From the NCBI GenBank assembly GCA_964016885.1, contig OZ024742.1, positions 218,054,001 to 218,118,000 of the forward strand: a stretch of DNA of 64,000 nucleotides, given 5' to 3'. This document shows, in pieces, positions 4,367 to 60,519 of this stretch. The stretch is from Eledone cirrhosa (taxonomy: Eukaryota). The notes below the pieces were generated by a model. It ran no database searches. It worked only from the letters and a program-made list of their open reading frames with translations, and was not told the origin of the DNA. Position numbers and translations under genes: made by a program. The stretch's first letter is position 1. The number at the start of each line of letters is the position of its first letter.

Positions 4367-4400
<34 letters not shown>

Positions 4401-6003: not shown

Positions 6004-6037
6004 GTGGTCTTTCCCATCTTTTCCACTCCATTCCAAC

Positions 6038-6796: not shown

Positions 6797-6847
6797 CCAG
6801 CGCGCAAGGCCTACAGAGACCGAATTAGCAAACTAGTTAAGTAGGCG

Positions 6848-8621: not shown

Positions 8622-8789
8622 TTCTATCATTGTTCTATTGTTATATCCTCTGTTTTTTGTTTTTTTTACACGCAGAAATGCCCTTTTGTACCGTCCAGTA
8701 TTGTCCTGTATTGTCCTTAATGTCTACTTTGTCTAAACCCTTGTGGTTAATAAAGAAAGCAGTATTATTATTATTATTATTATTATTAT

Positions 8790-15933: not shown

Positions 15934-16828
15934 CGAGGTGTGTCAGAAAAGTTCCAGGACTGATGTCACAAAAGATTTATTTCAAACCCAAACTTCACAC
16001 TAAGAGTTTTCTTCTTCAAAGTAATCCCCCTGGAGTATGTAACTGTAATCTTAGCTCTCTGCTGCGATCAAACTTTTTTCTTCATAATTTTAAATACATG
16101 TCATCTGTTTCAGGTCGTAATGCAATGAGCACAGAGCAACGAACAAACTTGAAAACTCCGTCAGAAGCACTGGGATTGCTGCAGCAAGTGTATGGAGATG
16201 AGACGATGTCACGCTCACGTGTTTTTGAGTGGTGCAAGAGGTTTAAAGAAGGACGAGAGGACGTGGAAGATGACCCCAGCAGCGGAAGGCCCTCAACAAC
16301 CAGGACTGAGGTCAACGTTGAGCGCGTATGGCAGATGGTGCGTAGCGATCCTCGGCTTACTGTTCGACTGATGGCAAATGAGCTGGGCATGAATCAGGAC
16401 AGCGTCTGGAAGACTCTCACTGAAGATTTGGACATGCGGAAAGTCTGCGTGAAGATGGTGCCAAAACTGCTGAAAGATGACCAGAAGGGTCGACGCATGC
16501 AAGTGTGCCAGGACATCCTTGAGCGTCTTGAAACCGAACCAGACTTGCTAGGCACAGTCACAACCGGTGATGAGTCATGGATCTTCGAGTACGACCCGGA
16601 AGGGACCCGCTTTGAAGACGTGGACGACATCAAAAAGGCCGTGACGACGGAACTGCGGAGCATCCCGGAAGAATCCTTCCAGGAGTGCATGCAGGCGTGG
16701 CAGAAAAGGATGGAAAAGTTCATTAGACTCCAGGGAGATTACTTTGAAGGAGAAAACACTTAGTGTGAAGTTTGAGTTTGAAATAAATCTTTTGTGACAT
16801 CAGTCCCGGAACTTTTCTGACCCACCTC

Positions 16829-16829
<1 letters not shown>
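15934..16829 (+). mobile_element. Mariner-like DNA transposon, internally deleted
   Basis: ~71-bp terminal inverted repeats 15934-16004 / 16759-16829 starting CGAGG; TA on the right, GA on the left; inside a (TA)n tract. Confidence 0.93.
16125..16763 (+). CDS. Truncated mariner transposase: HTH domains plus first catalytic Asp only
   Basis: MSRSRVFEWCKRFKEGREDVEDD..SGRP, MVPKLL, TGDESWIFEYDPE fused in frame to GTRFEDVDDIK...W.KR..GDYFEG. ATG at 16125 inferred. Confidence 0.7.
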   Translation: MSTEQRTNLKTPSEALGLLQQVYGDETMSRSRVFEWCKRFKEGREDVEDDPSSGRPSTTRTEVNVERVWQMVRSDPRLTVRLMANELGMNQDSVWKTLTEDLDMRKVCVKMVPKLLKDDQKGRRMQVCQDILERLETEPDLLGTVTTGDESWIFEYDPEGTRFEDVDDIKKAVTTELRSIPEESFQECMQAWQKRMEKFIRLQGDYFEGENT

Positions 16830-16881
<52 letters not shown>

Positions 16882-17188: not shown

Positions 17189-17374
17189 CTCATGCAATGA
17201 AGCCACTTTTCACAGAATCAAGGAAAAGAACATCCAGACATTTGCCACTTCAAAAACACAATAGCATATACAACGCTGCCAGAAAAACATGGCCTTCTAG
17301 TAAACGTATGTGGATCAACTTGCCGCTTAGTTTTACTTTTCTTCTTTCTCTTTCTTTGCATTTTCTTTCCGATA

Positions 17375-20300
17375 AAACCACCATCACCAGTGTAAACACT
17401 ACCACTACGACTGTAAACACTACCACCACCACCACCACCACTGTAAACACCACCACCACAGTAAACACTACCACCACCACCTTTGTAAACATCACCACCA
17501 CCATTGTAAGCACTACTACCACCACAGTAAACTCCCCCACCACAACTGTAAACACCATCACAACTGTAAACACCATCACAACTGTAAACAGCACCATCAC
17601 AACTTAAACACCGCCACTGTAAACACCACCACCACTGTAAACACTACCACCACCTTTGTAAACATCACCACCCCCATTGTAAACACTACTACCACCACAG
17701 TAAACTCCCCCACCACAACTGTAAACACTACCACCACCACCAGTGTAAGCACTACCACCACCACTGTAAACGTTACCACCACCACTGTAAACACTACCAC
17801 CACCATTGTAAACACTACCACCACCTTTGTAAACATCACCACCACCACTGTAAACACTACTGCCACCACTGTAAACTCCCCCATCACAAGTTTAAACACT
17901 ACCACCACCACTGTACGCACTACCACCACCACTGTAAACACTACCAACACCACTTTAAACACCACCACCATAAACACTACCGCCACCACTGTAAACACGA
18001 CGACCATTGTAAACACTTCCACCACCATTGTAAACACTACAACCAAAACCACTGTAAACCCCGCCGCCACCACTGTAAACACTACCACCACCACTGTAAA
18101 CACCACCACCACCACTGTAAACACCACCACCCTCACTGTAAACACCACCACTGTAAACACCACCACTGTAAACACAACCATTGTAAACACTACTACCACC
18201 ACTATAAACACCACCACTGTAAACACTACTACCACCACTATAAACACCACCACATCCACCACTGTAAACACAACCACCACCACCACCACTGTAAACACCA
18301 CCAACACCACTGTAAACACTACTACCACCACTATAAACACCACCACCACCACCACCACTGTAAACACTACTACCACCATTGTAAACACTACCACCACCAC
18401 CACCACCACCACCACCACCACCACCACCACCACTGTAAACACTACTACCACCATTGTAAACACTACCACCACCACCACTGTAAACACTACCACCACCATT
18501 GTAAACATCACCACCACCACTGTAAACACGACCACCACCTCTGTAAACACCCCACCACCACTGTAAACAATACCACCACCACTGTAAGCACTACCACCAC
18601 CACTGTAAACACTACCACCATCACTGTAAACACACCATCCCCACCACTGTAAACACCACCTCCTACACTGTAAACACTACCAACACCACTGTAAACACCA
18701 CCACCACCACTGTAAAAACTACCACACCATTGTAAACACTACCACAACCACTGTAAACACTACCAACACCACTGTAAACACTACCCCCACCATCGTAAAC
18801 ACCACCACCACAGTAAACACCACCACCACAACCACCACTGTAAACACTACCACAACCACTGTAAACACTACCACTACCATCACTGTAAACACTACCACCA
18901 CCATTATAAACACTACCAACACCACTGTAAACACTACCCCCCACCATCGTAAACACCACAACCACTGTAAACACTACCACCACCACTGTAAACACCACCA
19001 CTGTAAACACTACCACCACCACTGTAAACACTACCACCACCACTGTAAACACCACTACTGTAAACACTACCACCACCATTGTAAACACTACCACCACCAC
19101 CACAGTAAACACCACCACCACCACTGTAAACACTACCACCACCACTGTAAACACTACCACCACCACTGTAAACACCACCACTGTAGACACTACTACCACC
19201 ACCATAAACACCACCACCACCACTGTAAACAGGACCACCATTGTAAACACTACCACCACCACTGTAAACACTACCACCAACACTACTGTAAACCCCGCCG
19301 CCACCACTGTAAACACTACCACCAACACTGTAAACAGTACCAGCACCAGTGTAAACACCACTGTAAACACTACAACCACCACTGTAAACACTATCACCAC
19401 CACTGTAAACGCTACCACCACCACCACTGTAACCACCATCACCACCACTGTAAACACCACCACCACCACTGTAAACACCACCGCTGTAAACACTACTACC
19501 ACCACCATAAACACCACCACTGTAAACACTACTACCACCACTATAAACAGCACAACCACCACCACTATAAACAGCACAACCACCACCAGCACTATAAACA
19601 CTACCACCACCACTAGTGTAAACACTACCACCACCAATGTAAACATCACCACCACCACTGTAAGCACTACCACCACCACTGTAAACAATACCGCTACCAA
19701 TGTAAACACTACCACCACCAATGTAAACACCACCTCCACTCTAAACACCACCACCACCACTGTAAAGACTACCACCACCTTTGTAAACATCACCACCACC
19801 ATTGTAAACACTACTACCACCACCAGTGTAAGCACTACCACCACCACTGTAAACATTACCGCCACCACTGTAAACACTACCACCCCCACCACAGTAAACA
19901 CCACCACCGCCACTGTAAACACTACCACCACCACTATAAAAACCACAACCACCACTGTAAACACTACCACCACCACTGTAAACAATACAACCACCATAGT
20001 AAACACTACCACCACCACTGTAAACACTACCACACCAATGTAAACACTACTACCACCACAGTAAACATTAACACTACCACTGTAAACACCAGCACCACCA
20101 CTGTAGCACTACAACCACCACTACTGTAAACACCACCACCACTGTAAACACTTCTATCACCACAGTAAACACTACCACCAACACTGTAAACACTTCCACC
20201 CCCACTCAAAACACCAACACCACCACTGTAAACACTACCACCACCACCGTAAACACTATCACGACCACTGTAAACACTACCACTACCATTGTAAACACCA

Positions 20301-23300
20301 CCACGACCACTGTAAACACTACTACCACCACTGTAAACACTACAACCACCACCACTGTAAACACTACCACCACCACTATAAACACCACCACCACCACCAC
20401 CACCACCACTGTAAACACTACCACCAGCACTATAAAGACAACCAACACCACTGTAAACACTACCAACACCACTGTAAACACGACCACCACCACTGTAAAA
20501 CCTACCACCACTGTAAACACTACCAACACCAATGTAAACTCCACCACTGTAAACACTACCACCACCACCACTGTAAACACTACAACCATCACCACTGTAA
20601 ACACCACCAACACCACTGTAAACACTACCACCACCACTATAAACACCACCACTGTAAACACAACCACCAGCACTATAAAGACAACCACCACCACTGTAAA
20701 CACTACCACCTCCACTGTAAACACTACCATCACCACTGTAAATACTACCACCACCACTGTAAACACTACCACCACCACTGTAAACATCACCACTGTAAAC
20801 ACTACCACCACCACCACTGTAAATACTACCACCACCACTGTAAACACTACCACCACCACTGTAAACATCACCACTGTAAGCACTACCACACCACCACTGT
20901 AAACACCTACACCACCACTCTAAGCACTAGCACCACCACTGTGAACACTACCAGCACGACCACTGTAAACACCATCACCATCACTGTAAACACCACCATG
21001 GTAAACACTACCACCACCGCTGTAAATACTATCACCACCACTGTTAACATTACCACCACCACTGTAGACACCACCACCACTGTAAACACTAACAGAACCA
21101 CTGTAAACACTACCACCACAGTTGTACACACTACCACTACCACCACCACTGTAAACACTACCACCACCACTGTAAGTACTACCACAACCACCACTGTAAA
21201 CACCACCACCACCGCAGTAAACCGTAACACCACCACTGTAAACACCACCACCATTGTAAACAATACTACCACCAGTGTAAACACCACCACCCCTATAAAC
21301 ACTACCACCACAACTGTAAACACCACCGCCATTGTAAACACTACCACGACCATTGTAAACACTACCACCACCACTGTAAACACTACTACCAACACTGTAA
21401 ACACTACTACCACCACTGTAAACATTACCACCACCACCACCACCACCACCACCACCACCACCACCACCACCACCACCACTGTAAACACTACTACCACCAT
21501 TGTAAACACTACCACCACCACCACTGTAAACACTACCACCACCATTGTAAACATCACCACCACCACTGTAAACACTACAACCGCCACTGTAAACACCCCA
21601 CCCACACTGTAAAAACCACCACCACCACTGTAAACACTACCACCGCCGCTGCAAACACCACCACCACTGTAAACAATACCACCACGACCACTGTAAACAC
21701 CACCAACACTACTGTAAACACTACCACCACCACTGTAAACACTACCCCACCACCACTGTAAACTCCACCACTATCACTGTAAACACTACCACCCCCACTG
21801 TAAACACAACCACCACCACCACTGTAAACACCACCAACACCACTGTAAACAGTACTACCACCACTATAAACACCACCACCACCACCACCACCACCACCAC
21901 CACCACCACCACCACCACCACCACTGTAAACACTACTACCACCATTGTAAACACTACCACCACCACCACTGTAAACACTACCACCACCATTGTAAACATC
22001 ACCACCACCACTGTAAACACGACCACCGCCTCTGTAAACACCCCACCACCACTGTAAACAATACCACCACCACTGTAAGCACTACCACCACCACTGTAAA
22101 CACTACCACCATCACTGTAAACACACCACCCCCACCACTGTAAACACCACCTCCTACACTGTAAACACTACCAACACCACTGTAAACACCACCACCACCA
22201 CTGTAAAAACTACCACACCATTGTAAACACTACCACAACCACTGTAAACACTACCAACACCACTGTAAACACTACCCCCACCATCGTAAACACCACCACC
22301 ACCGTAAACACCACCACCACAACCACCACTGTAAACACTACCACAACCACTGTAAACACTACCACTACCACCACTGTAAACACTACCCCCCACCATTGTA
22401 AACACTACCAACACCTCTGTAAACACTACCCCCCACCATCGTAAACACCACAACCACTGTAAACACTACCACCACCACTGTAAACACTACCAACATCACT
22501 TTAAACACCACCACCATAAACACCACTGCCACCACTGTAAACACGACGACCATTGTAAACACTTCCACAACCACTGTAAACACTACCACCAAAACCACTG
22601 TAAACCCCGCCGCCACCACTGTAAACACTACCACCAACATTGTAAACACTACCACCACCACTGTAAACACCACCAACACCACTGTAAACACTACCACCAC
22701 CTCTGTAAATATTACCACCACCACTGGAAACACTTTCGCCACCACCACTGTAAACACCACCACCACCACTGTAAACACCACCACCCTCACTGTAAACACC
22801 ACCACTGTAAACACTACTACCACCACTATAAAGAATACCACATCCACCACTGTAAACACTACAACCAGCACTATAAAGACCACCACCACTACTGTAAACA
22901 CTACCACCACCAATGTAAACATCACCACCACCACTGTAAACACTACCACCACAACTGTAAACACCACCACTGTAAACACTAACACCACCAATGTAAACAC
23001 TACGACCACCAATGTAAACACCATCACCACTATTGTAAACACTACCGCCTCCACTGTAAACACTACCACCACCACTGTAAATACTACCACCACCACTGTA
23101 AACACTACCAACAACACTGTAAACATCACCACTGTAAACACTACCACCACCACCATTGTAAATACTACCACCACCACTCTAAGCACTACCACCACCACCA
23201 CCACTGTAAACACTACAACAATCACTATAAAGACCACCACCACTACTGTAAACACTACCACCACCAATGTAAATCTCACCACCACCACTGTAAACACTAC

Positions 23301-26300
23301 CACCACCGCGGTAAACACCACCACCACCACCACTGTAAACACTACCACCACGATTGTAAACACCACCACCACTGTAAACACTACCACCACTGTAAACACC
23401 ACAACCACCACTGTAAACACTACCACCACCATTGTAAACACTACCACCACCACTGTAAACACTACCACCACCACCGAAAACACCACCACCACTGTAAACA
23501 CTACCACCCCCACTGTAAACACCACCACCACTGAAAACACCACCACCACTGTAAACACTAAAACCACCATTGTAAACACTACCACCACCACCACTGTAAA
23601 CACTACCACCACCATTGTAAACATCACCACCACCACTGTAAACACGACCACCACCTCTGTAAACACCCCACCACCACTGTAAACAATACCACCACCACTG
23701 TAAGCACTACCACCACCACTGTAAACACTACCACCATCACTGTAAACACACCATCCCCACCACTGTAAACACCACCTCCTACACTGTAAACACTACCAAC
23801 ACCACTGTAAACACCACCACCACCACTGTAAAAACTACCACACCATTGTAAACACTACCACAACCACTGTAAACACTACGAACACCACTGTAAACACTAC
23901 CCCCACCATCGTAAACACCACCACCACCGTAAACACCACCACCACAACCACCACTGTAAACACTACCACAACCACTGTAAACACTACCACTACCACCACT
24001 GTAAACACTACCACCACCATTGTAAACACTACCAACACCACTGTAAACACTACCCCCCACCATCGTAAACACCACAACCACTGTAAACACTACCACCACC
24101 ACCACCACCACTGCAAATACTAACACTGTAAACACTACCACCACCACTGTAAACACCACCACTGTAAACACTACCACCACCACTGTAAACACCACCACTG
24201 TAAACACTACCACCACCACTGTAAACACCACCACTGTAAACACTACCACCACCACTGTAAACACCACCACTGTAAACACTACCACCACCACTGTAAACAC
24301 CACCACTGTAAACACTACCAGCACCATTGTAAAGACTACCACCACCACCACTGTAAACACCAGCACCACCAATGTAAACACTACCACCACCACTGTAAAC
24401 ACTACCACCACCACTGTAAACACCACCACTGTAGACACTACTACCACCACCATAAACACCACCACCACCACTGTAAACAGGACCACCATTGTAAACACTA
24501 CCACCACCACTGTAAACACTACCACCAACACTGTAAACAGTACCAGCACCAGTGTAAACACCACTGTAAACACTACAACCACCACTGTAAACACTATCAC
24601 CACCACTGTAAACGCTACCACCACCACCAATGTAAACACCATCACCACTATTGTAAACACCACCACCACCACTGTAAACACCACCGCTGTAAACACTACT
24701 ACCACCACCATAAACACCACCACTGTAAACACTACTACCACCACTATAAACAGCACAACCACCACCACTGTAAACACCTCAACCAGCACTATAAAGACCA
24801 CCACCACCACTAGTGTAAACACAACCACCACCACTAGTGTAAACACTACCACCACCAATGTAAACTTCACCACCACCACTGTAAACACTACCACCACCAC
24901 TGTAAACAATACCGCTACCAATGTAAACACTACCACCACCAATGTAAACACCACCACCACTCTAAACACCACCACCACCATTGTAAACACTACCACCACC
25001 TTTGTAAACATCACCACCACCATTGTAAACACTACTACCACCACCAGTGTAAGCACTACCACCACCACTGTAAACATTACCACCACCACTGTAAACACTA
25101 CCACCCCCACCACTGTAAACACCACCACCGCCACTGTAAACACTACCACCACCACTATAAAAACCATCACCACCACTGTAAACACTACCACCACCACTGT
25201 AAACAATACAACCACCATAGTAAACACTACCACCACCACTGTAAACACTACCACCACCACTGTAAACACTACTACCACCACAGTAAACATTAACACTACC
25301 ACTGTAAACACCAGCACCACCACTGTAGCACTACAACCACCACTACCGTAAACAAAACCACCACTGTAAACACTTCTATCACCACAGTAAACACTACCAA
25401 CAACACTGTAAACACTTCCACCCCCACTCAAAACACCAACACCACCACTGTAAACACTACCACCACCACCGTAAACACTACCACGACCACTGTAAACACT
25501 ACCACTACCATTGTAAACACCACCACGACCACTGTAAACACTACCACCACCACTGTAAACACTACCACCAGCACTATAAAGACAACCAACACCACTGTAA
25601 ACACAACCAACACCACTGTAAACACGACCACCACCACTGTAAAACCTACCACCACTGCAAACACTACCAACACCAATGTAAACACCACCACTGTAAACAC
25701 TACCACCATCACCACTGTAAACACCACCAACACCACTGTAAACACTACTACCACCACTATAAACACCACCACCACCACTGTAAACACAACCACCAGCACT
25801 ATAAAGACAACCACCACCACTGTAAACACTACCACCACCACTGTAAACACCACTACCACTGTAAAACCTACCACCACTGTAAACACTACCACCACCACTG
25901 TAAACACCACCACCACTGTAAACACTAACACAACCACTGTAAGTACTACCACCACCACCACTGTAAACACCACCACCACCGCAGTAAACCGTAACACCAC
26001 CACTGTAAACACCACCACCACTGTAAACACTACTACCACCAGTGTAAACACCACCACCTCTATAACAACTACCACCACCACTGTAAACACCACCACCATT
26101 GTAAACACTACCACGACCATTTTAAACACTACCACAACTACTGTAAACACTACTACCAACACTCTAAACACTACTACCACCACTGTAAACATTACCACCA
26201 CCACCTTAAACACTACCACCACCACCACTGTAAACAATACAACCGCCACTGTAAACACCCCACCCCACTGTAAAAACCACCACCACCACTGTAAACACTA

Positions 26301-29300
26301 CCACCTCCGCTGTAAACACCACCACCACTGTAAACAATACCACCACGACCACTGTAAACACCACCAACACTACTGTAAACACTACCACCACCACTGTAAA
26401 CACTACCCCACCACCACTGTAAACACCACCACTATCATTGTAAGCACTACCACCACCACTGTAAACACGACCACCACCACCACTGTAAACACCACCAACA
26501 CCACTGTAAACACTACTACCACCACTATAACCACCACCACCACCACCACCACCACCACCACCACCACCACCACCACCACCACCACCACCACCACCACCAT
26601 CACCACCACCACCACTGTAAACACTACTACCACCATTGTAAACACTACCACCACCACCACTGTAAACACTACCAACACCACTGTAAACACTACCCCCACC
26701 ATCGTAAACACCACCACCACTGTAAACACCACCACAACCACTGTAAACACTACCACCACCATTGTAAACACTACCAACACCACTGTAAACACTACCCCCA
26801 CCATCGTAAACACCACCACCACTGTAAACACTACCACCACTACTGTAAACACCACTACCTCCACACTGTAAACACCACCACCACCACTGTAAACACCACC
26901 ACTGTAAACACTACCACCACCACAGTAAACACCACCACTGTAAACACTACTACCACCACTATAAACACCACAACCACCACCACTGTAAACACCTCAACCA
27001 GCACTATAAAAACCACCACCACCACCACTGTAAACACTAACACCACCACTGTAAACAATACCACCACCAATGTAAACACTACCACCACCACTCTAAACAC
27101 CACCACGCTAAACACCACAACCACTGTAAACACTACCACCACCTTTGTAAACATCACCACCCCCATTGTAAACACTACTACCACCACAGTAAACTCCCCC
27201 ACCACAACTGTAAACACTACCACCACCACCAGTGTAAGCACTACCACCACCACTTTAAACATTACCACCACCATTGTAAACACTACCACCCCACCACTGT
27301 AAAAACCACCACCGCCACTGTAAACACTACCACCACCACTATAAAAACCACCACCACCACTGTAAACACTACCACCACCATTGTAAACACTACCACCACC
27401 ACTATTAAAACCACCAATACCACTGTAAACACTACCACCGCCACTGTAAACACTACCACCACCACTATAAAAACCACCACCACCACTGTAAACACTACCA
27501 CCACCATCGTAAACACTACCACCACCTTTGTAAACATCACCACCACCACTGTAAACACTACTGCCACCACTGTAAGCACTACCACCACCACCACTGTAAA
27601 CAGCACCACCACTGTAAACACTACCAACACCACTTTAAACACCACCACCATAAACACCACTGCCACCACTGTAAACACGACGACCATTGTAAACACTTCC
27701 ACAACCACTGTAAACACTACCACCAAAACCACTGTAAACCCCGCCGCCACCACTGTAAACACTACCACCAACATTGTAAACACTACCACCACCACTGTAA
27801 ACACCACCAACACCACTGTAAACACTACCACCACCTCTGTAAATATTACCACCACCACTGGAAACACTTTCGCCACCACCACTGTATACACCACCACCAC
27901 CACTGTAAACACCACCACCCTCACTGTAAACACCACCACTGTAAACACCACCACTGTAAACACCACCATTGTAAACACTACTACCACCACTATAAACACC
28001 ACCACTCTAAACACTACTACCACCACTATAAACACCACCACATCCACCACTGTAAACACTACAACCAGCACTATAAACACCACCACCACTACTGTAAACA
28101 CTACCACCACCAATGTAAACATCACCACCACCACTGTAAACACTACCACCACAACTGTAAACACCACCACTGTAAACACTAACACCACCATGTAAACACT
28201 ACGACCACCAATGTAAACACCATCACCACTATTGTAAACACTACCAGCTCCACTGTAAACACTACCACCACCACTGTAAATACTACCACCACCACTGTAA
28301 ACACTACCAACAACACTGTAAACATCACCACTCTAAACACTACTACCACCACTGTAAACATTACCACCACCACCTTAAACACTACCACCACCACCACTGT
28401 AAACAATACAACCGCCACTGTAAACACCCCACCCCACTGTAAAAACCACCACCACCACTGTAAACACTACCACCTCCGCTGTAAACACCACCACCACTGT
28501 AAACAATACCACCACGACCACTGTAAACACCACCAACACTACTGTAAACACTACCACCACCACTGTAAACACTACCCCACCACCACTGTAAACACCACCA
28601 CTATCATTGTAAGCACTACCACCACCACTGTAAACACGACCACCACCACCACTGTAAACACCACCAACACCACTGTAAACACTACTACCACCACTATAAC
28701 CACCACCACCACCACCACCACCACCACCACCACCACCACCACCACCACCACCACCACCACCACCACCATCACCACCACCACCACTGTAAACACTACTACC
28801 ACCATTGTAAACACTACCACCACCACCACTGTAAACACTACCAACACCACTGTAAACACTACCCCCACCATCGTAAACACCACCACCACTGTAAACACCA
28901 CCACAACCACTGTAAACACTACCACCACCATTGTAAACACTACCAACACCACTGTAAACACTACCCCCACCATCGTAAACACCACCACCACTGTAAACAC
29001 TACCACCACTACTGTAAACACCACTACCTCCACACTGTAAACACCACCACCACCACTGTAAACACCACCACTGTAAACACTACCACCACCACAGTAAACA
29101 CCACCACTGTAAACACTACTACCACCACTATAAACACCACAACCACCACCACTGTAAACACCTCAACCAGCACTATAAAAACCACCACCACCACCACTGT
29201 AAACACTAACACCACCACTGTAAACAATACCACCACCAATGTAAACACTACCACCACCACTCTAAACACCACCACGCTAAACACCACAACCACTGTAAAC

Positions 29301-32300
29301 ACTACCACCACCTTTGTAAACATCACCACCCCCATTGTAAACACTACTACCACCACAGTAAACTCCCCCACCACAACTGTAAACACTACCACCACCACCA
29401 GTGTAAGCACTACCACCACCACTTTAAACATTACCACCACCATTGTAAACACTACCACCCCACCACTGTAAAAACCACCACCGCCACTGTAAACACTACC
29501 ACCACCACTATAAAAACCACCACCACCACTGTAAACACTACCACCACCATTGTAAACACTACCACCACCACTATTAAAACCACCAATACCACTGTAAACA
29601 CTACCACCGCCACTGTAAACACTACCACCACCACTATAAAAACCACCACCACCACTGTAAACACTACCACCACCATCGTAAACACTACCACCACCTTTGT
29701 AAACATCACCACCACCACTGTAAACACTACTGCCACCACTGTAAGCACTACCACCACCACCACTGTAAACAGCACCACCACTGTAAACACTACCAACACC
29801 ACTTTAAACACCACCACCATAAACACCACTGCCACCACTGTAAACACGACGACCATTGTAAACACTTCCACAACCACTGTAAACACTACCACCAAAACCA
29901 CTGTAAACCCCGCCGCCACCACTGTAAACACTACCACCAACATTGTAAACACTACCACCACCACTGTAAACACCACCAACACCACTGTAAACACTACCAC
30001 CACCTCTGTAAATATTACCACCACCACTGGAAACACTTTCGCCACCACCACTGTATACACCACCACCACCACTGTAAACACCACCACCCTCACTGTAAAC
30101 ACCACCACTGTAAACACCACCACTGTAAACACCACCATTGTAAACACTACTACCACCACTATAAACACCACCACTCTAAACACTACTACCACCACTATAA
30201 ACACCACCACATCCACCACTGTAAACACTACAACCAGCACTATAAACACCACCACCACTACTGTAAACACTACCACCACCAATGTAAACATCACCACCAC
30301 CACTGTAAACACTACCACCACAACTGTAAACACCACCACTGTAAACACTAACACCACCATGTAAACACTACGACCACCAATGTAAACACCATCACCACTA
30401 TTGTAAACACTACCAGCTCCACTGTAAACACTACCACCACCACTGTAAATACTACCACCACCACTGTAAACACTACCAACAACACTGTAAACATCACCAC
30501 TGTAAACACTACCACCACCACCATTGTAAATACTACCATCACCACTCCAAGCACTAACACCACCACCACTGTAAACACTACAACCATCACTATAAAGACC
30601 ACCACCACTACTGTAAACACTACCACCACCAATGTAAATCTCACCACCACCACTGTAAACACTACCACCACCACTGTAAACACCACCACCACCATCACTG
30701 TAAACACTACCACCACGATTGTAAACACCACCACCACTGTAAACACTACCACCACCAGTGTATACACTACCACCACCACCACCACCACTGTAAACACTAC
30801 CACCACCACTGTAAACACCACCACCACTGTAAACACTACCACCACCACTGTAAACACTACCACCACCACTGTAAACACCACCCCCACTACTGTAAACACT
30901 ACCACCACCCCTGTAAACACTACCACCACGACTGTAAACACCACCACCACTGTAAACACTACCACCACCACTGTAAACACCACCACAACTGTAAACACTA
31001 CCAACACCACTGTAAACACTACCACCACCACTGTAAACACCACCACCACTGTAAACACCACCACCACTGTAAACACTACTACCACCACCACCACTGTAAA
31101 CACTACCACCACCACTGTAAACACCACCACCACTATAAACACTAACACAACTGAAATAACCATCACCACTGTAAACACTACCACCACCACTGTAAACACT
31201 ACCACCACCACTGTATACACTACCACCACCACCACCACCACCACCACCACCACCACCACCACTATAAACACCTCCACCACCACTGTAAACACTACCACCA
31301 CCACTCACTGTAAACACTACCACCACCACTGTAAACACCCCCCACTACTGTAAACACTACCACCACCCTTGTAAACACTACCACCACCACCACTGTAAAC
31401 ACCACCACCACTGTAAACACTGCAACCACCACTGTAAACACTACCACCACCACCACTGTAAACACTAACACCACCACTGTAAACACCTCCACCACCACTG
31501 TAAACACTACCACCACCACTGTAAACACTACCACCACCACTGTAAACACCACCACCACTTTAAACACCACCACCACCACCACTGTAAACATTACCACCAC
31601 CACTGTGAACACTACCACCACCACTGTAAACACTAACACCACCACTGTAAACACTACCACCACTACTGTAAACACTACCACCACCACCACTGTAAACACC
31701 ACCACCACTTTAAAGACCACCACCACCACTGTAAACATTACCACCACCACTGTAAACATTACCACCACCACCACTGTAAACACTACCACCGCCACTGTAA
31801 ACACTACCACCACCACCACCACTGTAAACACTACCAACTCCACTGTAAACACTACCACCACCACTGTAAACACCACCACCACTTTAAACACCACCACCAC
31901 CACTGTAAACATTACCACCACCACTGTAAACATTACCACCACCACTGTAAACACTACCACCACCACTGTAAACACCACCACCACTTTAAACAACACCACC
32001 ACCACTGTAAACATTACCACCACCACTGTAAACATTACCACCACCACTGTAAACACTACCACCACCACTGTAAACACCACCACCACTTTAAAGACCACCA
32101 CCACCACTGTAAACACCACCACCACTTTAAAGACCACCACCACCACTGTAAACATTACCACCACCACTGTAAACATTACCACCACCACCACTGTAAACAC
32201 TACCAACTCCACTGTAAACACTACCAACTCCACTGTAAACACTACCACCACCACTGTAAACACCACCACCACTTTAAACACCACCACCACCACTGTAAAC

Positions 32301-35300
32301 ATTACCACCACCACTGTAAACATTACCACCACCACTGTAAACACTACCACCACCACTGTAAACACCACCACCACTTTAAACAACACCACCACCACTGTAA
32401 ACATTACCACCACCACTGTAAACATTACCACCACCACTGTAAACACTACCACCACCACTTTAAACAACACCACCACCACTGTAAACATTACCACCACCAC
32501 TGTAAACATTACCACCACCACTGTAAACATTACCACCACCCCTGTAAACACTACCAACACCACTTTAAACACCACCACCACCACTGTAAACATTACCACC
32601 ACCACTGTAAACATTACCACCACCACTGTAAACACTACCAACTCCACTGTAAACACTACCACCGCCACTGTAACCACCACCACCACTGTAAACACTACCA
32701 CCACCACCACTGTAAACACTACCAACACCACTGTAAACACTACCACCACCACCACTGTAAACACTACCAACACCACTGTAAACACTACCAACACCACTGT
32801 AAACACTACCAACACCACTGTAAACACTACCAACACCACTGTAAACACTACCACCACCACCACTGTAAAAACTACCAACACCACTGTAAACACTACCACC
32901 ACCACTGTAAACACTACCAACACCACTGTAAACACTACCACCACCACCACTGTAAACACTACCAACACCACTGTAAACACTACCACCACCACCACTGTAA
33001 ACACTACCAACACCGCTGTAAACACTACCACCACCACTGTAAACACTACCAACACCACTGTAAACACTACCAACACCACTGTAAACACTACCAACACCAC
33101 TGTAAACACCACCACCACCACTGTAAACACTACCACCACCACCACTGTAAACACTACCAACACCACTGTAAACACTACCACCACCACCACCACTGTAAAC
33201 ACTACCAACACCACTGTAAACACTACCAACACCACTGTAAACACTACCAACACCACTGTAAACACTACCAACACCACTGTAAACACTACCACCACCACCA
33301 CTGTAAAAACTACCAACACCACTGTAAACACTACCACCACCACTGTAAACACTACCAACACCACTGTAAACACTACCACCACCACCACTGTAAACACTAC
33401 CAACACCACTGTAAACACTACCACCACCACTGTAAACACTACCAACACCACTGTAAACACTACCAACACCACTGTAAACACTACCAACACCACTGTAAAC
33501 ACTACCAACACCACTGTAAACACTACCAACACCACTGTAAACACTACCACCACCACTGTAAACACTACCAACACCACTGTAAACACTACCAACACCACTG
33601 TAAACACTACCAACACCACTGTAAACACTACCACCACCACTGTAAACACTACCAACACCACTGTAAACACTACCAACACCACTGTAAACACTACCAACAC
33701 CACTGTAAACACTACCACCACCACTGTAAACACTACCAACACCACTGTAAACACCACCACCACCACTGTAAACACTACCAACACCACTGTAAACACTACC
33801 AACACCACTGTAAACACTACCAACACCACTGTAAACACTACCAACACCACTGTAAACACTACCACCACCACTGTAAACACTACCACCACCACTGTAAACA
33901 CTACCACCACCACTGTAAACACTACCAACACCACTGTAAACACTACCACCACCACCACTGTAAACACTACCAACACCACTGTAAACACAACCACCACCAC
34001 CACTGTAAACACTACCAACACCACTGTAAACACTACCACCACCACTGTAAACACTACCACCACCACTGTAAACACTACCACCACCACTGTAAACACTACC
34101 ACCACCACTGTAAACACTACCAACACCACTGTAAACACTACCAACACCACTGTAAACACTACCAACACCACTGTAAACACCACCACCACCACTGTAAACA
34201 CTACCAACACCACTGTAAACACTACCAACACCACTGTAAACACTACCAACACCACTGTAAACACTACCAACACCACTGTAAACACTACCACCACCACCAC
34301 TGTAAACACTACCAACACCACTGTAAACACTACCAACACCACTGTAAACACTACCAACACCACTGTAAACACTACCACCACCACTGTAAACACTACCACC
34401 ACCACTGTAAACACTACCAACACCACTGTAAACACTACCAACACCACTGTAAACACTACCACCACCACCACTGTAAACACTACCAACACCACTGTAAACA
34501 CTACCAACACCACTGTAAACACTACCAACACCACTGTAAACACTACCACCACCACTGTAAACACTACCACCACCACTGTAAACACTACCAACACCACTGT
34601 AAACACTACCAACACCACTGTAAACACTACCACCACCACCACTGTAAACACTACCAACACCACTGTAAACACTACCAACACCACTGTAAACACTACCAAC
34701 ACCACTGTAAACACTACCAACACCACTGTAAACACTACCAACACCACTGTAAACACTACCAACACCACTGTAAACACCACCACCACCACTGTAAACACTA
34801 CCAACACCACTGTAAACACTACCAACACCACTGTAAACACTACCAACACCACTGTAAACACTACCAACACCACTGTAAACACTACCAACACCACTGTAAA
34901 CACTACCACCACCACCACTGTAAACACTACCAACACCACTGTAAACACTACCAACACCACTGTAAACACTACCAACACCACTGTAAACACTACCAACACC
35001 ACTGTAAACACTACCAACACCACTGTAAACACTACCACCACCACTGTAAACACTACCAACACCACTGTAAACACTACCACCACCACCACTGTAAACACTA
35101 CCAACACCACTGTAAACACAACCACCACCACCACTGTAAACACTACCAACACCACTGTAAACACTACCACCACCACTGTAAACACTACCACCACCACTGT
35201 AAACACTACCACCACCACTGTAAACACTACCACCACCACTGTAAACACTACCACCACCACTGTAAACACTACCAACACCACTGTAAACACTACCAACACC

Positions 35301-35741
35301 ACTGTAAACACCACCACCACCACTGTAAACACTACCAACACCACTGTAAACACTACCAACACCACTGTAAACACTACCAACACCACTGTAAACACTACCA
35401 ACACCACTGTAAACACTACCACCACCACCACTGTAAACACTACCAACACCACTGTAAACACTACCAACACCACTGTAAACACTACCAACACCACTGTAAA
35501 CACTACCACCACCACTGTAAACACTACCACCACCACTGTAAACACTACCACCACCACTGTAAACACTACCACCACCACTGTAAACACTACCAACACCACT
35601 GTAAACACTACCAACACCACTGTAAACACTACCAACACCACTGTAAACACCACCACCACCACTGTAAACACTACCAACACCACTGTAACCACCACCACCA
35701 CCACTGTAAATACCACCACCACTGTAAACACCACCACCACA
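17375..35741. repeat. ~18 kb tandem array of ACTGTAAAC(ACT)(ACC)n units, mostly 12-21 bp
   Basis: Directly visible. Diverged with higher-order duplications at 17.4-31.3 kb; homogeneous 18-bp units at ~32.7-35.7 kb. Confidence 0.97.
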
Positions 35742-35787
35742 AGCTCTGATGCACGTGTCGCCACCTGTATCACATTATAACAACGTT

Positions 35788-35957
35788 AATGATGACGATG
35801 ACGATTATTATGATGATGATGATGACTGTGATGATGATGATGATGATGGTGATGGTGATGATGATGATGGCGGTGGTGGTTGTAGTTGTGGTAATGATAG
35901 TGATGATGATGACTATGATGATGATGATGGTGGTGATGATGGTGACGATTATGACTG

Positions 35958-35989
<32 letters not shown>

Positions 35990-36169
35990 GCGGTGGTGGT
36001 GGTGATGGTGATGACTGTGATGATGCTGATGATGATGGTCCTGATGATGATGATGGTGGTGACGATTATGACTGTAATGATGATGATGATGATGATAGCG
36101 GTGATGGTGGTGATGGTGATGATGATGACTATGATGACGAGGATGATGATCATGATAATGGTGATGTTT

Positions 36170-36200
<31 letters not shown>

Positions 36201-36305
36201 CTCTGATGATGCTGATGATGATGGTGCTGATGATGATGATGGTGGTGGTGGTGATGATGATGATGATGATGATGACTGTGATGATGCTGATGATGATGAC
36301 GATTG

Positions 36306-36336
<31 letters not shown>
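35788..36336. repeat. Imperfect (GAT)n/(GGT)n microsatellite
   Basis: Directly visible. Confidence 0.95.
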
Positions 36337-36337
<1 letters not shown>

Positions 36338-36465
36338 GCAGTGAGGACAGCCTTATGGACGACATCAACTGCACTGCTGTTACTGGTGCAAGTCACTGCA
36401 ATTATGAATGCACTACCACTAGTTGGTTGTTAAATTGCAGTCGGAGTAAACACAGCTGGAGAAAT

Positions 36466-36920
36466 ACCACCAGCACTAGCACCAGCACCACTACCACCGC
36501 CAGCAGCAGCAGCAGCAGCAGCAGCATCACCACCACCACCACCACCACTACCACTACTACCACCACCACCACCACCACCACCACCACCACCACCACCACC
36601 ACCACCACCACCACCACCACTAATGGCAACAACAATTACAAGAACACAACTAATACCATCACTATTAGTACCACCAACACTACCACCACCACCACCACCA
36701 CCACCACCACCACTACCACCACCACTACCACCACCACCACCACCACCACCACCACCACCACCACCACCACCACCACCACCACCACCACGCCCATCACTAA
36801 TGGCAACAACAAAACAACTAATACCATCACTATTAAGACCACAACACTACCAACACGACCACTACCACCATCACTACCACCACCACCACCACCACCACCA
36901 CCACCACCACCACCACCACT
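36466..36920. repeat. (ACC)n-rich microsatellite with a duplicated taatggcaacaac...taataccatcactatta island
   Basis: Directly visible. Confidence 0.9.
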
Positions 36921-36949
36921 ACTGATATTATTTGTGTGACAGGTATCAT

Positions 36950-39210
36950 TGGTGGTGGTAGTGGTTATAGTGATAGTGGTGATGGTGGTAGTGGTTAAAG
37001 TCAAGGTGGTGATTTGATCGTGGTGGTGTTTGTAGTGGTTAAAGTCACAGTGGTGATGTTGATAGTGGTGGTGGTAGTGGTTATAGGGGCAGTGGTAATG
37101 GTGGTGGTGGTGGTAGTGGTTATAGTGGTGTTGGTGTTTGTGGTGGTAGTGGTTATAGGGGCAGTGGTAATGGTGGTGGTGGTGGTGGTAGTGGTTATAG
37201 TGGTGTTGGTGTTTGTGGTGGTAGTGGTTATAGGGGCAGTGGTAATGGTGGTGGTGGTGGTAGTGGTTATAGTGGTGGTGGTGTTTGTGGTGGTAGTGGT
37301 TATAGGGGCAGTGGTAATGGTGGTGGTGGTGGTAGTGGTTATAGTGGTGGTGGTGTTTGTGGTGGTAGTGGTTATAGGGGCAGTGGTAATGGTGGTGGTG
37401 GTGGTAGTGGTTATAGTGGTGGTGGTGTTTGTGGTGGTAGTGGTTATAGGGGCAGTGGTAATGGTGGTGGTGGTGGTAGTGGTTATAGTGGTGGTGGTGT
37501 TTGTGGTGGTAGTGGTTATAGGGGCAGTGGTAATGGTGGTGGTGGTGGTAGTGGTTATAGTGGTGGTGGTGTTTGTGGTGGTAGTGGTTATAGGGGCAGT
37601 GGTAATGGTGGTGGTGTTTGTAGTGGTGGTGGTAGTGGTTACAGTGGCAGTGGTAATGGTGGTGATGGTGGTAGTGGTTATAGTGGTGGTGGTGGTGTTT
37701 GTAGTGGTGGTGGTAGTGGTTAAAGTCACAGTGGTGATGTTGATAGTGGTGGTGGTAGTGGTTATAGAGGCAGTGGTAATGGTGGTGGTGTTTGTAGTGG
37801 TAGTGGTAGTGGTTATAGTAGCAGTGGTAATGGTGGTGGTGTTTGTAGTGGTAGTGGTAGTGGTTATAGAGGCAGTGGTAATGGTGGTGGTGTTTGTAGT
37901 GGTAGTGGTAGTGGTTATAGTAGCAGTGGTAATGGTGGTGGTGTTTGTAGTGGTAGTGGTAGTGGTTATAGAGGCAGTGGTAATGGTGGTGGTGTTTGTA
38001 GTGGTAGTGGTAGTGGTTATAGTAGCAGTGGTAATGGTGGGGGTGTTTGTAGTGGTGGTGGTAGTGGTTACAGTGGCAGTGGTAATGGTGGTGATGGTGG
38101 TAGTGGTTATAGTGGTGGTGGTGTTTGTAGTGGTGGTGGTAGTGGTTATAGTGGCAGTGGTAATGGTGGTGGTGTTTGTAGTGGTGGTGGTAGTGGTTAA
38201 AGTCACAGTGGTGATGTTGATAGTGGTGGTGGTAGTGGTTATAGAGGCAGTGGTAATGGTGGTGGTGTTTGTAGTGGTAGTGGTAGTGGTTATAGTAGCA
38301 GTGGTAATGGTGGTGGTGTTTGTAGTGGTAGTGGTAGTGGTTATAGAGGCAGTGGTAATGGTGGTGGTGTTTGTAGTGGTAGTGGTAGTGGTTATAGTAG
38401 CAGTGGTAATGGTGGTGGTGTTTGTAGTGGTAGTGGTAGTGGTTATAGAGGCAGTGGTAATGGTGGTGGTGTTTGTAGTGGTAGTGGTAGTGGTTATAGT
38501 AGCAGTGGTAATGGTGGGGGTGTTTGTAGTGGTGGTGGTAGTGGTTACAGTGGCAGTGGTAATGGTGGTGATGGTGGTAGTGGTTATAGTGGTGGTGGTG
38601 TTTGTAGTGGTGGTGGTAGTGGTTATAGTGGCAGTGGTAATGGTGGTGGTGTTTGTAGTGGTGGTGGTAGTGGTTAAAGTCACAGTGGTGATGTTGATAG
38701 TGGTGGTGTTTGTAGTGGTGGTGGTACTTGTTATAGTGGCAGTGGTGATGGTGGTAGTGGTTATAGTGGTGTTGGTGTTTGTGGTGGTAGTGGTTATAGT
38801 GGCAGTGGTAATGGTGGTGGTGTTTGCAGTAGTGGTGGTAGTGGTTATAGTGGCAGTGGTAATGGTGGTGGTGTTTGTAGTGGTAGTGGTAGTGGTTATA
38901 GTGGCAGTGGTAATGGTGGTGATGGTGGTAGTGGTTATAGTGGTGGTGGTGTTTGTGGTGGTAGTGGTTATAGTGGCAGTGGTAATGGTGGTGGTGTTTG
39001 TAGTGGTGGTGGTAGTGGTTACAGTGGCAGTGGTAATGGTGGTGGTGTTTGTAGTGGTAGTGGTAGTGGTTATAGTGGCAGTGGTGATGGTGGTGGTGTT
39101 TGTAGTGGTGGTGGTAGTGGTTACAGTGGCAGTGGTAATGGTGGTGGTGTTTGTAGTGGTAGTGGTAGTGGTTATAGTGGCAGTGGTAATGGTGGTAGTG
39201 GTGGTGGTGG
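36950..39210. repeat. GGT-rich minisatellite with 72-bp and 51-bp units and a 477-bp higher-order repeat
   Basis: ttataggggcagtgg recurs every ~72 bp at 37081-37600; ttaaagtcacagtgg occurs at 37720, 38197 and 38674. Confidence 0.92.
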
Positions 39211-39281
39211 TGAAGGTGGAAGTGTTAGTGTCCGTAGTGGTGGCGACAAGTGGTTGTGTTTTTGCTGCTGTGGTCGGTAGC

Positions 39282-39324
<43 letters not shown>

Positions 39325-39436
39325 GTAGTAGTGGTGGTGGTGGTAACACCAGTAGGGTTTCTACATGCTTCTTCTACTCAGGATATGCAACAATCATTGA
39401 CAGAATTTGGTGGAGTGAAGTAGAGTGTTTGGATAC

Positions 39437-40585
39437 CACTACACCGCCACCACTACCGCCACCGCCACCACCGCCACCACTACTCACCCCATCACCAACA
39501 CCATCACCATCACCATCACAGTCACCACCACCTTTACCACCATCATCCCCACCCACCACCACGATCACAGCCAACACCACCACCACCACCACGTCCACTA
39601 CTACCATCACAACTCGTACCACCACCACCGCCCCCAACACCACCAACACCACCACCATCACCACCAACACCACCACCATCACAACTACCACCACCACCAC
39701 CATCAGCCACTCCATCGCCACCACAACCACCACCACCACCACCACCACCAACACCACCATATCATAGCCACCACCACCACCAACACCAACACCACCATAA
39801 CACAGCCACCACCACCACCAACACCACCACCACCATATCACAGCCAACACCACCACCACCACCACCACCACCACCACCACCACCACCACCACCACCACCA
39901 CCACCACCACCACCACCACCACCAACACCACCATAACACAGCCACCGCCACCGCCACCACCACCACCACCATATCACAGCCAACACCAACACCACCACCA
40001 CCAACACCACCATATCACAGCCACCACCACCACCACCAACACCACCAAATCACAGCCACCACCACCATATCACAGCCACCACCACCAACACCACCATATC
40101 ACAGCCACCATCACCACCACAACCACCACCACCATATCACAACCACCACCACCACCACCACCACCACCACCACCACCACCACCACCACCACCACCACCAC
40201 CAACACCACCATATCACAGCCACCACCACCACCACCACCATATCACAACCACCACCACCACCACGACCAACACCACCATATCACAGCCACCACCACCACC
40301 ACCACCATATCACAGCCACCACCACCAACACCACCATATCACAGCCACGACCACCACCATATCACAGCCACCACCACCACCACCACCACCATATCACAAC
40401 CACCACCACCACCACCACCACGACCAACACCACCATATCACAGCCACCACCACCACCACCACCACCATATCACAGCCACCACCACCAACACCACCATATC
40501 ACAGCCACCACCACGACGACGACGACCACCACCACCATCACCACCATCACCACCACCATCATATCACAGACACCACCACCATCAT
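39437..40585. repeat. ACC-rich array punctuated by accatatcacagcc
   Basis: Directly visible. Confidence 0.9.
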
Positions 40586-40589
40586 CAGC

Positions 40590-40660
40590 AATGTTGTGTT
40601 GTGTTCTTTTGTCTTTGTATTGTCCCAAATGTCCTGTGTCCTTGTGGCTAATAAAAGTAA
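40590..40660 (+). mobile_element. Isolated 3' tail of the Tx1-type LINE family
   Basis: tgtattgtcc...ccttgtggctaataaaag resembles 8707-8757 (tgtattgtcc...cccttgtggttaataaag). Confidence 0.65.
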
Positions 40661-40774
40661 TTATCCTTAGCAGTAGTAGTAGTCATAGCATCACAAACAG
40701 TAGTAGTAGTGGTTAGTGTTGTAGTAGTGGACTAACACTGTTACAATTACATATACACAATCAGAGTTATAGCT

Positions 40775-58924: not shown

Positions 58925-59525
58925 AATCCCGCCGAGGTTAACTTTGCCTTTCATCCTTACGGGGTCGATAACATAAAGTACCAGTAATGTACTGGGTAAT
59001 TGCTGGCCTTGTGCCTAAAGTAGAAACAATTATATTATAATAGGAACAAGACGGAATGGGCACAGTTGAAATGCTTTTGATCATACATCGACTGGAGGCT
59101 ATGAAACAAGGACAACAACAAAGTATTTTATTATTAATGTACACACGAGAGCGATAGATTGGTAATAATCGGTAGAGGACAACATTCATTGCGGTATATA
59201 GTTATGGTCTTGTGCGTTCTGAATTCAAATCCCGCTGAGGTTAGCTAGGCCTTCCATCCTTACGAGGTCGATAAAATAAAGTATCAGTAACGCACTGGGG
59301 TCGAAATAATCGACTGCCCCTTCTCTTCAAATTGTTGGTCTTGTGCCAAAAGTAGGAACAATTATATTATAATATATGTAGGGTAGTGGGTTGGCAGTAT
59401 CATTAGAGCATCGGATCAAGGGCTTTAAGGCATCTAGTTATAGTCCTTTATGTTCTGAGTTCAAATCCCACCGTGGTCAATTTTCTTTCCATCCTTCCGG
59501 GTTCGATAAGATAAAGTATTAGTAA
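58925..59525 (+). mobile_element. Cluster of three tRNA-SINE copies (58925-59035, 59157-59365, 59385-59525)
   Basis: Same A/B boxes and cc.tttcatcctt.cgggg tcgataa core as the 3091 copy. Confidence 0.85.
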
Positions 59526-59975
59526 CATATGTGGAATCTTACTATAGATTTATATTTGGAGGAGGGGGTGTGTGTTAATATGATTTTTCGGTGACTGTAA
59601 CCTAACGTTTATAGTACTTATAAGCTTTTTGAGGGGCTGCTTCCTATAGTCTAGATTCTATGTTTTCTATTGGTGCACAGTGAATATTATTAACTACCTA
59701 TACTGCTTAAACTTTACAAATATCAATGATGAAATAACGACAAGATAAAGTATTAGTAACATATGTGGAATCTTACTATAGATTTATATTTGGAGGAGGG
59801 TGTGTGTGTTAATATGATTTTTCGGTGACTGTAACCTAACGTTTATAGTACTTATAAGCTTTTTGAGGGGCTGCTTCCTATAGTCTAGATTCTATGTTTT
59901 CTATTGGTGCACAGTGAATATTATTAACTACCTATACTGCTTAAACTTTACAAATATCAATGATGAAATAACGAC
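59508..59975. repeat. 234-bp tandem duplication
   Basis: 59508-59741 is repeated almost identically at 59742-59975. Confidence 0.93.
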
Positions 59976-60519
59976 ACCATTTTCTCTGAAATTAGCGTGC
60001 CGCTTCGTTGGTGTGTGTTAACAATGCTGAACTCTTGCTTTCCCCTTAATATACAGTAAATGATGATAGCATGAGGTGAAATAAATGCATTTTAATTACG
60101 GCATTTTTTTGCGGTTTACAGTAATAACATCAAGTAAGAATAAACATACATTGAGCAGCGATATAAAAGCGTATTCTACTGTTTTTATATCAATTATTCA
60201 CTAAGTATTATTAAATGCCGCAGAAATAAACTCTTTACGATGCAACAAAGAAAATATTTCTGTCACGAAACATGTATTAACTAAAATTTGTCTTGTTTTT
60301 CCTCCTCTTCAAAACCAAATAACGCTTCATCAACATTTTCAGTCATCATTGGATCGTCAACAGATTCTTAGTCCCCATTTATGACGTCACTGACATTGTC
60401 ACACCACATAAAAAATATATCTTCCGTCCTATCAAGTACATTGGAGATACCACATTTCTTATAGGAACGCACACAAGTTTTAGCGAAGGCAACCAGTTTA
60501 GGAAAGCAGTCATTCTGAA

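What the first reader, a model, noticed from the sequence alone, without database searches (positions are those of the whole stretch)
35742..39436. Unique islands inside the array spell collinear pieces of two SRCR domains
Seen, all on + and in order: SDARVATC (35745); GSEDSLMDDINCT...ECTTTSWLLNCSRSK with AG one base out of frame (36337-36460); DIICVT followed by G|GTAT, a phase-1 donor-like site (36924-36944); GEGGSVSVRSGGDKWLC (39209); NTSRVSTC...DRIWWSEVECL (39345-39430). Known SRCR pattern: EGRVEV..G.WG.VC...DA.V.C...G.G.IW.DDV.C.G.E..L..C....W...NC.HSEDAGV.C. Inference: a Thr-rich mucin plus SRCR (DMBT1-like) gene has been pulled apart by GAT, ACC and GGT expansions arising inside its exons, so the 26 kb array may be a gene turned into satellite. 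The match is by eye and imperfect.
Basis: partly seen in the sequence, partly recalled or inferred. Interest (0 to 1): 0.75.

Follow-up and report, generated by a model that had tools for sequence, protein, structure and literature searches.

The report
Octopus satellite with faint SRCR echoes
This is a 26-kb single-locus patchwork of triplet-based repeats whose short unique spacers faintly resemble pieces of an immune-receptor (SRCR) domain; the resemblance is likely chance, though a long-dead mucin-SRCR gene overgrown by repeats is not excluded.

Summary
The five peptide strings are at the stated places and in SRCR order, but in frames 0,1,0,2,0 with stops between. Standard searches do not call them SRCR: Pfam, PDB, 1.84 billion proteins, own genome. 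Scrambled decoy profiles reach the same z in about 0-5 of 800 trials, and another way of cutting the islands gives z 1.7. There is no DNA-level match among 160 SRCR exon pieces of this genome and no SRCR exon within 100 kb. Internal spacings do not fit. The 18-kb Thr-reading array has 32 frame changes, several copied by higher-order duplication. Four of five islands sit where repeat polarity flips, and a sixth is a LINE 3' tail. Verdict: non-coding compound satellite with junction leftovers (0.6). A decayed mucin-SRCR gene stays open (0.25), helped by an acceptor-like pyrimidine tract at the array start. The scan has noted similar satellites on other DNA of this genome, but not these islands.

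The parts
17308..17371 (+). Array start: in-frame ATG with a hydrophobic reading, and a pyrimidine tract ending in CCG (acceptor-like but no AG; would be phase 1 into the Thr frame)
   Evidence: Tract 0.94 pyrimidine, highest of 35 ACC-type arrays in 986 kb; ATG at 17308; single copy
17373..35740 (+). 21-bp minisatellite (about 880 units; reads VNTTTTT in one frame), single locus, 32 frame changes, more homogeneous towards the 3' end
   Evidence: all 124 genome matches of a 23-mer lie in the window
26160..30501 (+). Exact 2,173-bp higher-order duplication (offset 2,169) that copies frameshifting variants; may be recent or an assembly artefact
35743..35788 (+). Island 1 (SDARVATC, stop at 35778), at an ACC-to-GAT polarity flip
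35789..36337 (+). GAT/GGT triplet block
36337..36465 (+). Island 2 (MDDINC...W..NC), the most SRCR-like piece; Cys spacing 9-4-9; at a GAT-to-ACC flip
   Evidence: 5.6 bits against 8.2-43.5 for 42 real pieces; ESM lead 0.89 to a cluster with 38% PF00530; single copy
36466..36919 (+). ACC block with a short internal duplication and one frame change
36921..36949 (+). Island 3 (DIICVT, CAG|GTATCA donor-like), at an ACC-to-GGT flip
   Evidence: GTATCA is not among 58 donor hexamers tallied after real C-terminal SRCR exons
36955..39224 (+). GGT-based 51/72-bp minisatellite, opposite polarity to the main array
39209..39278 (+). Island 4; its 5' half is 72-80% like plain GGT repeat; stop at 39278
39345..39433 (+). 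Island 5 (RVSTC...IWWSEVECL), at a GGT-to-ACC flip; Cys-to-Trp distance 14
   Evidence: Real domains 21-29 in 28 of 42 measured; single copy; ESM 0.77, no family
39442..40558 (+). ACC-based block
40592..40665 (+). Island 6 (not in the finding): 3' tail of a dispersed LINE retrotransposon, 5'-truncated, followed by AGT runs
   Evidence: nhmmer E 6e-19
40805..43658 (+). 41-bp minisatellite running into a 200-N assembly gap

Best explanation
The 26-kb block is a single-locus compound satellite that is likely non-coding, and its unique islands are likely leftover junction DNA whose SRCR look is likely a best-of-many chance match. Shown: six repeat blocks of alternating strand polarity, a locus-specific 21-bp unit, 32 frame changes, higher-order duplications, four of five islands at polarity flips, and one further island that is a LINE 3' tail. 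Inferred: the blocks grew from ACC/GGT/GAT seeds by slippage and then by unequal exchange. Slippage cannot homogenise across a switch of polarity, so 25-130 bp of older DNA survives there. TGG/TGT/GGT/GAT-rich DNA reads as Trp, Cys, Gly and Asp, the letters that define SRCR, and a free choice of frame and cut makes a collinear map easy to find.
For: Frame changes and their recurrence; duplications; locus specificity. Polarity flips: 3 flips plus 1 weak flip among the five islands, against 5 flips of 31 gaps elsewhere. LINE tail. No SRCR call in Pfam at E<=10, PDB, 1.84 billion representatives, the 5.8 billion set or the own-genome family search. No DNA match to 160 SRCR exon pieces: shuffles reach the best score in 60, 32, 48, 3 and 27 of 60, and the 3 of 60 is a GGT-repeat match. 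Decoy profiles reach z 3.6-5.6 at the top of 800, against 3.1-4.0 for the true profile. A plain TGTGG satellite 60 kb away scores higher on the raw chain. Wrong internal spacings. No synonymous excess in the array: 29 of 78 third-position variants against 102 of 388 in other ACC runs, a small difference that I did not test. Only transposon and low-complexity domains among 199 of 218 single-copy ORFs in 264 kb.
Against: The five hand-cut islands beat shuffles strongly at low gap cost and beat 4000 random genomic sets (0, 0, 0, 1, 17 of 4000). Islands 4+5 alone score 0-2 of 500 with the outside profile, though 28-150 of 1000 with the own-genome codon model. ESM, unguided, put an SRCR-containing cluster second for island 2, with 9 of its 10 family hits in one family or clan. 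The array starts right after the strongest pyrimidine tract of 35 arrays. Islands 1-5 have no identified source.
Confidence: 0.6

Rival explanations
1. A secreted mucin-plus-SRCR gene died and was overgrown. The 18-kb VNTTTTT array would be its former Thr-rich exon, the CCG-ending tract its lost acceptor, and islands 1-5 the remains of two SRCR domains decayed by about 20-25% and split by in-place triplet expansions.
For: Chain scores above shuffles. Simulated relics at 20-30% decay land near the observed pair of z-scores in 4-10 of 80 runs, against 16 of 10,000 for shuffles, a likelihood ratio near 50. ESM lead. Acceptor-like tract in phase 1 and in-frame ATG. Every unit reads as an N-T-T glycosylation sequon (sequence). 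Unchecked scan notes report live giant mucin exons in this genome.
Against: It needs an 7-15 residue loss inside uninterrupted island 5 and in-frame indels in island 2. No N-terminal third of domain 1, and no acceptor before island 4 (3-7 pyrimidines of 15). No paralogue at DNA level and no orthologue among proteins. No other exon in 264 kb. A mutation-aware codon model does not raise the signal (z 3.51 vs 3.55), which lies between what relics and chance give. Real SRCR pieces caught in repeats in this genome stay obvious, at about 45 bits.
Confidence: 0.25
2. Islands 1-5 are pieces of one transposable element of a family I did not sample, stretched apart by repeats that arose inside it.
For: Island 6 is a LINE tail. 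Islands between triplet blocks in the flanks include two copies of one dispersed repeat. Unchecked scan notes describe satellites inside dead transposons in this genome.
Against: Islands 1, 2 and 5 are single-copy in genome DNA searches. A profile of the 3' 1.3 kb of the island-6 LINE finds only island 6. Best matches of islands 2 and 5 to 20 LINE-tail loci lie outside the element at about 65% identity (3 and 5 of 250 shuffles).
Confidence: 0.1
3. The islands belong to a live gene: either micro-exons spliced out of repeat-filled introns, or the 403-codon Asp/Cys/Thr-rich frame at 35728-36936.
For: The 403-codon frame is open. A phase-compatible GT...AG pair exists around the AGT run (positions; my reading).
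Against: GAT, GGT and ACC runs cannot reach a stop by one change, so long frames are expected (genetic code). The frame slips from Thr to Pro near 36840. Splice sites are weak. No homologues.
Confidence: 0.04

Closest known systems
Single-locus compound minisatellite / VNTR arrays grown from trinucleotide microsatellites (own knowledge)
   Same: Unit lengths mostly multiples of 3, homogeneity gradient, higher-order duplications, unique spacers at block junctions, one locus.
   Different: Large (26 kb or more, ends in a gap), six blocks of alternating polarity, and spacers with a weak collinear likeness to a protein domain.
Microsatellites born at non-LTR retrotransposon tails (PMC3812793; search listing and 12 passages seen)
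   Same: Island 6 is a severely 5'-truncated LINE 3' end followed by short AGT runs; sister copies end in ATT/ATC/AGT runs.
   Different: The passages concern poly(A) tails of human L1 and Alu. Here the tail explains only a few short runs, not the 18-kb array.
SRCR domain, Pfam PF00530 (DMBT1, CD163, neurotrypsin; 135 matches in this genome)
   Same: Short motifs in the right order: a DD-I-N-C word, W-x2-N-C, I-I-C, W-x3-C, I-W-x2-E-V-x-C.
   Different: Far below cut-off, wrong Cys spacing, no G.E..L..C word, pieces in three frames, no exon boundaries of either architecture seen in this genome.
Giant Thr-rich mucin exons of octopods (unchecked scan notes)
   Same: Thr-rich reading, N-glycosylation sequons, tens of kb.
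   Different: Those are reported as stop-free single frames; this array changes frame 32 times and has no AG acceptor.

Membership tests
SRCR domain (PF00530) | Score above the Pfam cut-off (26.1 bits) | tested here: not met
   No hit at E<=10; none in the window in the genome search; joined pieces 8.5 and 2.3 bits on an own profile
SRCR domain (PF00530) | C-terminal Cys spacing about 10-10-10 | tested here: not met
   Island 2 has 9-4-9; 20 of 42 real domains have 10-10-10 and none 9-4-9
SRCR domain (PF00530) | Second Cys to IW/LD motif distance 21-29 residues | tested here: not met
   14 in island 5; 21-29 in 28 of 42 domains measured
SRCR domain (PF00530) | Motifs in collinear order | tested here: inconclusive
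SRCR domain (PF00530) | SRCR fold and disulphides | not testable with these tools
   No continuous unaltered sequence exists to fold
SRCR pseudogene | Nucleotide homology to a parent gene or orthologue | tested here: not met
   None among 160 own-genome exon pieces; other species' genomes not available
SRCR gene of this genome | Exon per domain or split after the CxxLGY word, strong GT-AG sites, clustered exons | tested here: not met
   no SRCR exon in 264 kb
Mucin PTS exon (live) | One maintained reading frame | tested here: not met
   32 frame changes, several repeated by duplication
Mucin PTS exon (dead) | Former splice acceptor or start in the Thr frame | tested here: inconclusive
   Pyrimidine tract ranks 1 of 35 and ends in CCG, phase 1; in-frame ATG at 17308
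Mucin or SRCR gene (live) | Transcription and splicing | not testable with these tools
   No run holding half of the words was served; eight runs laid gave no contig on islands 2 or 5, which is no evidence of absence
Single-locus minisatellite | Tandem units confined to one locus, with higher-order duplication | tested here: met
LINE 3' tail (island 6) | Dispersed copies, lying just after an endonuclease/RT/zf-RVT frame | tested here: met

The most novel reading that the evidence does not exclude
A secreted mucin-SRCR gene was turned into a 26-kb satellite in place: its Thr-rich exon kept expanding after death, and triplet expansions of alternating polarity split two SRCR domains into five islands, leaving a readable fossil of a host gene becoming satellite DNA.
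Probability: 0.25. Interest if true: 0.6.

Novelty: new member of a known kind. Interest (0 to 1): 0.28.

Why it matters
If it is a plain satellite, it is a useful warning: TGG/TGT/GGT/GAT-rich repeat debris in octopod genomes mimics Cys/Trp/Gly-rich domains and mucins. If the relic reading is right, it would be a direct case of a host protein gene converted into satellite DNA, and would link the giant mucin exons noted elsewhere in this genome to the birth of non-coding arrays. My paper searches for such a case (related 43, 58, 66, 84) found none in the library searched; subscription journals are mostly missing from it.

Tried and rejected
Pfam, PDB and protein-collection searches of the islands: nothing significant. 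The only PDB hit for island 2 was a scorpion toxin at E 0.039 through the DD.NC word, read as chance. Sequencing runs: the search ranked runs by repeat words (best share 0.37), and eight runs laid gave no contig on islands 2 or 5; uninformative. LINE origin of islands 1-5: a by-eye likeness of island 5 to the LINE 3' region did not hold. Fold-back origin: inverted arms are only about 70% complementary, which is generic ACC/GGT pairing. Control with real island sets from other arrays: only 4 sets (8 strands) found in 965 kb, max z 1.5, too few to weigh. The first pyrimidine-tract control missed the array's own start and was redone. Of 218 single-copy ORFs, 19 inside the PIF1/Helitron stretch were not sent to Pfam. 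No structure or complex job was run, as there is no continuous sequence to fold.

Full report
Setting. The window is G000:C3:218054001-218118000 of a 3.0-Gb genome. Its repeats look octopod to me, and unchecked scan notes say the same. The finding lies in a 26-kb repeat block (17373-43658) that ends in a 200-N gap. The block is a chain: an 18.4-kb 21-bp array, a GAT block, an ACC block, a GGT-based 51/72-bp array, an AGT run, another ACC block and a 41-bp array. GC skew flips between them.

Observation. All five peptide strings are at the stated coordinates on +. They lie in frames 0, 1, 0, 2, 0, with stops at 35778, 36996 and 39278. Islands 1, 2 and 5 are single-copy by DNA search, and islands 2 and 5 by protein search. 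These searches skip very common words.

Standard searches. Pfam gave no SRCR hit for any island at E up to 10. The PF00530 search of the genome found 135 matches among 150 scored of 193 candidates, none in the window. Island 2 had no hit among 1.84 billion representatives or in two word-indexed searches. PDB searches gave no SRCR chain; island 2 hit a scorpion toxin at E 0.039 through the same DD.NC word. The ESM atlas gave island 2 a second-ranked cluster with 38% PF00530 at score 0.89, below the level the tool calls more than a lead. Island 5 got 0.77 and no family.

Custom tests, for and against. I built SRCR profiles from 30 and then 42 domains of this genome and from 119 outside domains. 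Hand-joined pieces scored 5.5 and 1.0 bits on the first profile (46 and 327 of 2000 shuffles) and 8.5 and 2.3 bits on the second (4 and 101 of 2000). Island 2 alone scored 5.6 bits, below all 42 real pieces of its size (8.2-43.5). On all ten islands with the own profile it was not significant (16-41 of 150 shuffles). With the outside profile, automatic cuts gave 0-11 of 500 for eight islands and 3-32 of 500 for ten; islands 4+5 alone gave 0-2 of 500 and islands 1-3 gave 7-70. A different automatic cut gave z 1.7 and 1.1. Random genomic pieces reached the observed score in 0, 0, 0, 1 and 17 of 4000. So the resemblance is real as a statistic but fragile.

How much is expected from looking at many families. 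Column-scrambled profiles on both strands (800 trials) gave top z of 3.6, 4.4 and 5.6 at costs 3, 4, 6; the true profile gave 4.0, 3.5, 3.1. That is 0, 4 and at least 5 of 800 at or above the true value. Simulated relics at 20-30% decay matched the observed z pair in 4-10 of 80 runs, shuffles in 16 of 10,000. That ratio of about 50 is not enough against a low prior (my estimate). A mutation-aware codon model did not sharpen the signal.

No parent and poor anatomy. Against 160 SRCR exon pieces of this genome, no island matched at DNA level better than shuffles, except island 4 through GGT repeats. At protein level only island 2 did (6 of 300), and best hits came from different genes. Island 2 has Cys spacing 9-4-9 where 20 of 42 real domains have 10-10-10. 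Island 5 has 14 residues from Cys to Trp where 28 measurable domains have 21-29. SRCR genes here have one exon per domain or split after the CxxLGY word, and they cluster. No SRCR exon lies within 100 kb on either side (best 7.8 and 5.5 bits). Of 218 single-copy ORFs, 199 were scanned and gave only transposon or low-complexity domains. Where real SRCR pieces are copied into repeats in this genome they stay near-identical to their exon, at about 45 bits.

The arrays. The 21-bp array reads VNTTTTT without stops, but it changes frame 32 times over 706 marker words, and the same frame-changing words recur through duplications of 1.6-5.1 kb, one exact over 2,173 bases. All 124 genome matches of a 23-mer are in this window. 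Third-position variants are 29 of 78, against 102 of 388 in other ACC runs (not tested further). Islands 1, 3 and 5 sit at clear polarity flips and island 2 at a weaker one; elsewhere 5 of 31 gaps between triplet blocks are flips. The 5' half of island 4 is 72-80% like plain GGT repeat. Island 6 is the 3' end of a dispersed LINE: 61 matches among 40 scored candidates, part of them to the AGT runs, related tails just after RT and zf-RVT frames, nhmmer E 6e-19. That retrotransposon ends seed microsatellites is reviewed in PMC3812793 (listing and 12 passages seen). Islands 1-5 do not belong to the last 1.3 kb of that LINE.

The array begins right after a 35-base tract with 94% pyrimidines, the highest of 35 ACC-type arrays in 986 kb. 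It ends in CCG rather than an AG, in phase 1 of the Thr frame, and an in-frame ATG with a hydrophobic reading lies at 17308. This fits a dead mucin exon. It is one site, found after looking.

Mechanism. Shown: block structure, polarity flips, frame changes, duplications, LINE tail. Inferred: growth from triplet seeds by slippage and unequal exchange; survival of older DNA where polarity switches; an SRCR look arising from composition and free choice of frame. RNA could not be tested: no suitable run was served. No other cephalopod genome was available.

Verdict. Most likely an ordinary single-locus compound satellite (0.6); a decayed mucin-SRCR gene 0.25; pieces of an unsampled transposon 0.1; a live gene 0.04. 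Other papers were seen as search listings only, and no supplements were read. SRCR motif and minisatellite background not tied to a call is from my own knowledge.

Noticed in passing
L041:1500-2450 (G000:C27:22021500-22022450): The 3' part of a real SRCR exon plus its GTAAGT donor is copied four more times head to tail (period about 190 bp) inside an ACT-triplet intron array, near-identical and without the exon's acceptor. A true case of SRCR exon pieces as minisatellite units.
   Followed up: partly
L033:3780-4250 (G000:C9:15583800-15584250): The end of an SRCR exon with its donor is repeated three more times, shrinking, inside a GGT array.
   Followed up: partly
window 48765-48920: A GC-rich single-copy island between ACC/GCC repeats; its minus-strand reading looks protein-like but has no Pfam hit below E 0.15.
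   Followed up: partly
window 11900-13800: Decayed PIF1-like helicase in two frames (PF05970 E 5.7e-36 and 8.2e-25), probably a Helitron (my reading).
   Followed up: partly
window 15940-16830: Mariner-type element with terminal inverted repeats (seen in the sequence) and an internally deleted transposase (HTH_32, HTH_48).
   Followed up: partly
window 3850-9620: A LINE-like copy on + (about 4000-8400) and Penelope-like frames on - (8644-9619), judged from translations only; three of these frames had no Pfam hit.
   Followed up: no
L067:120-5930 (about 60 kb beyond the array): A 5-kb ACCAC/TGTGG satellite followed by a 21-bp array; it outscores the islands on the raw SRCR chain by composition alone.
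   Followed up: partly
window 59504-59976: Exact 234-bp tandem duplication of otherwise unique-looking DNA.
   Followed up: no
L035 (G000:C9:15600000-15603000) and L036 (G000:C5:46535000-46538000): SRCR domains inside long single open frames (875 and 633 codons), a third exon architecture for this family in the genome.
   Followed up: no
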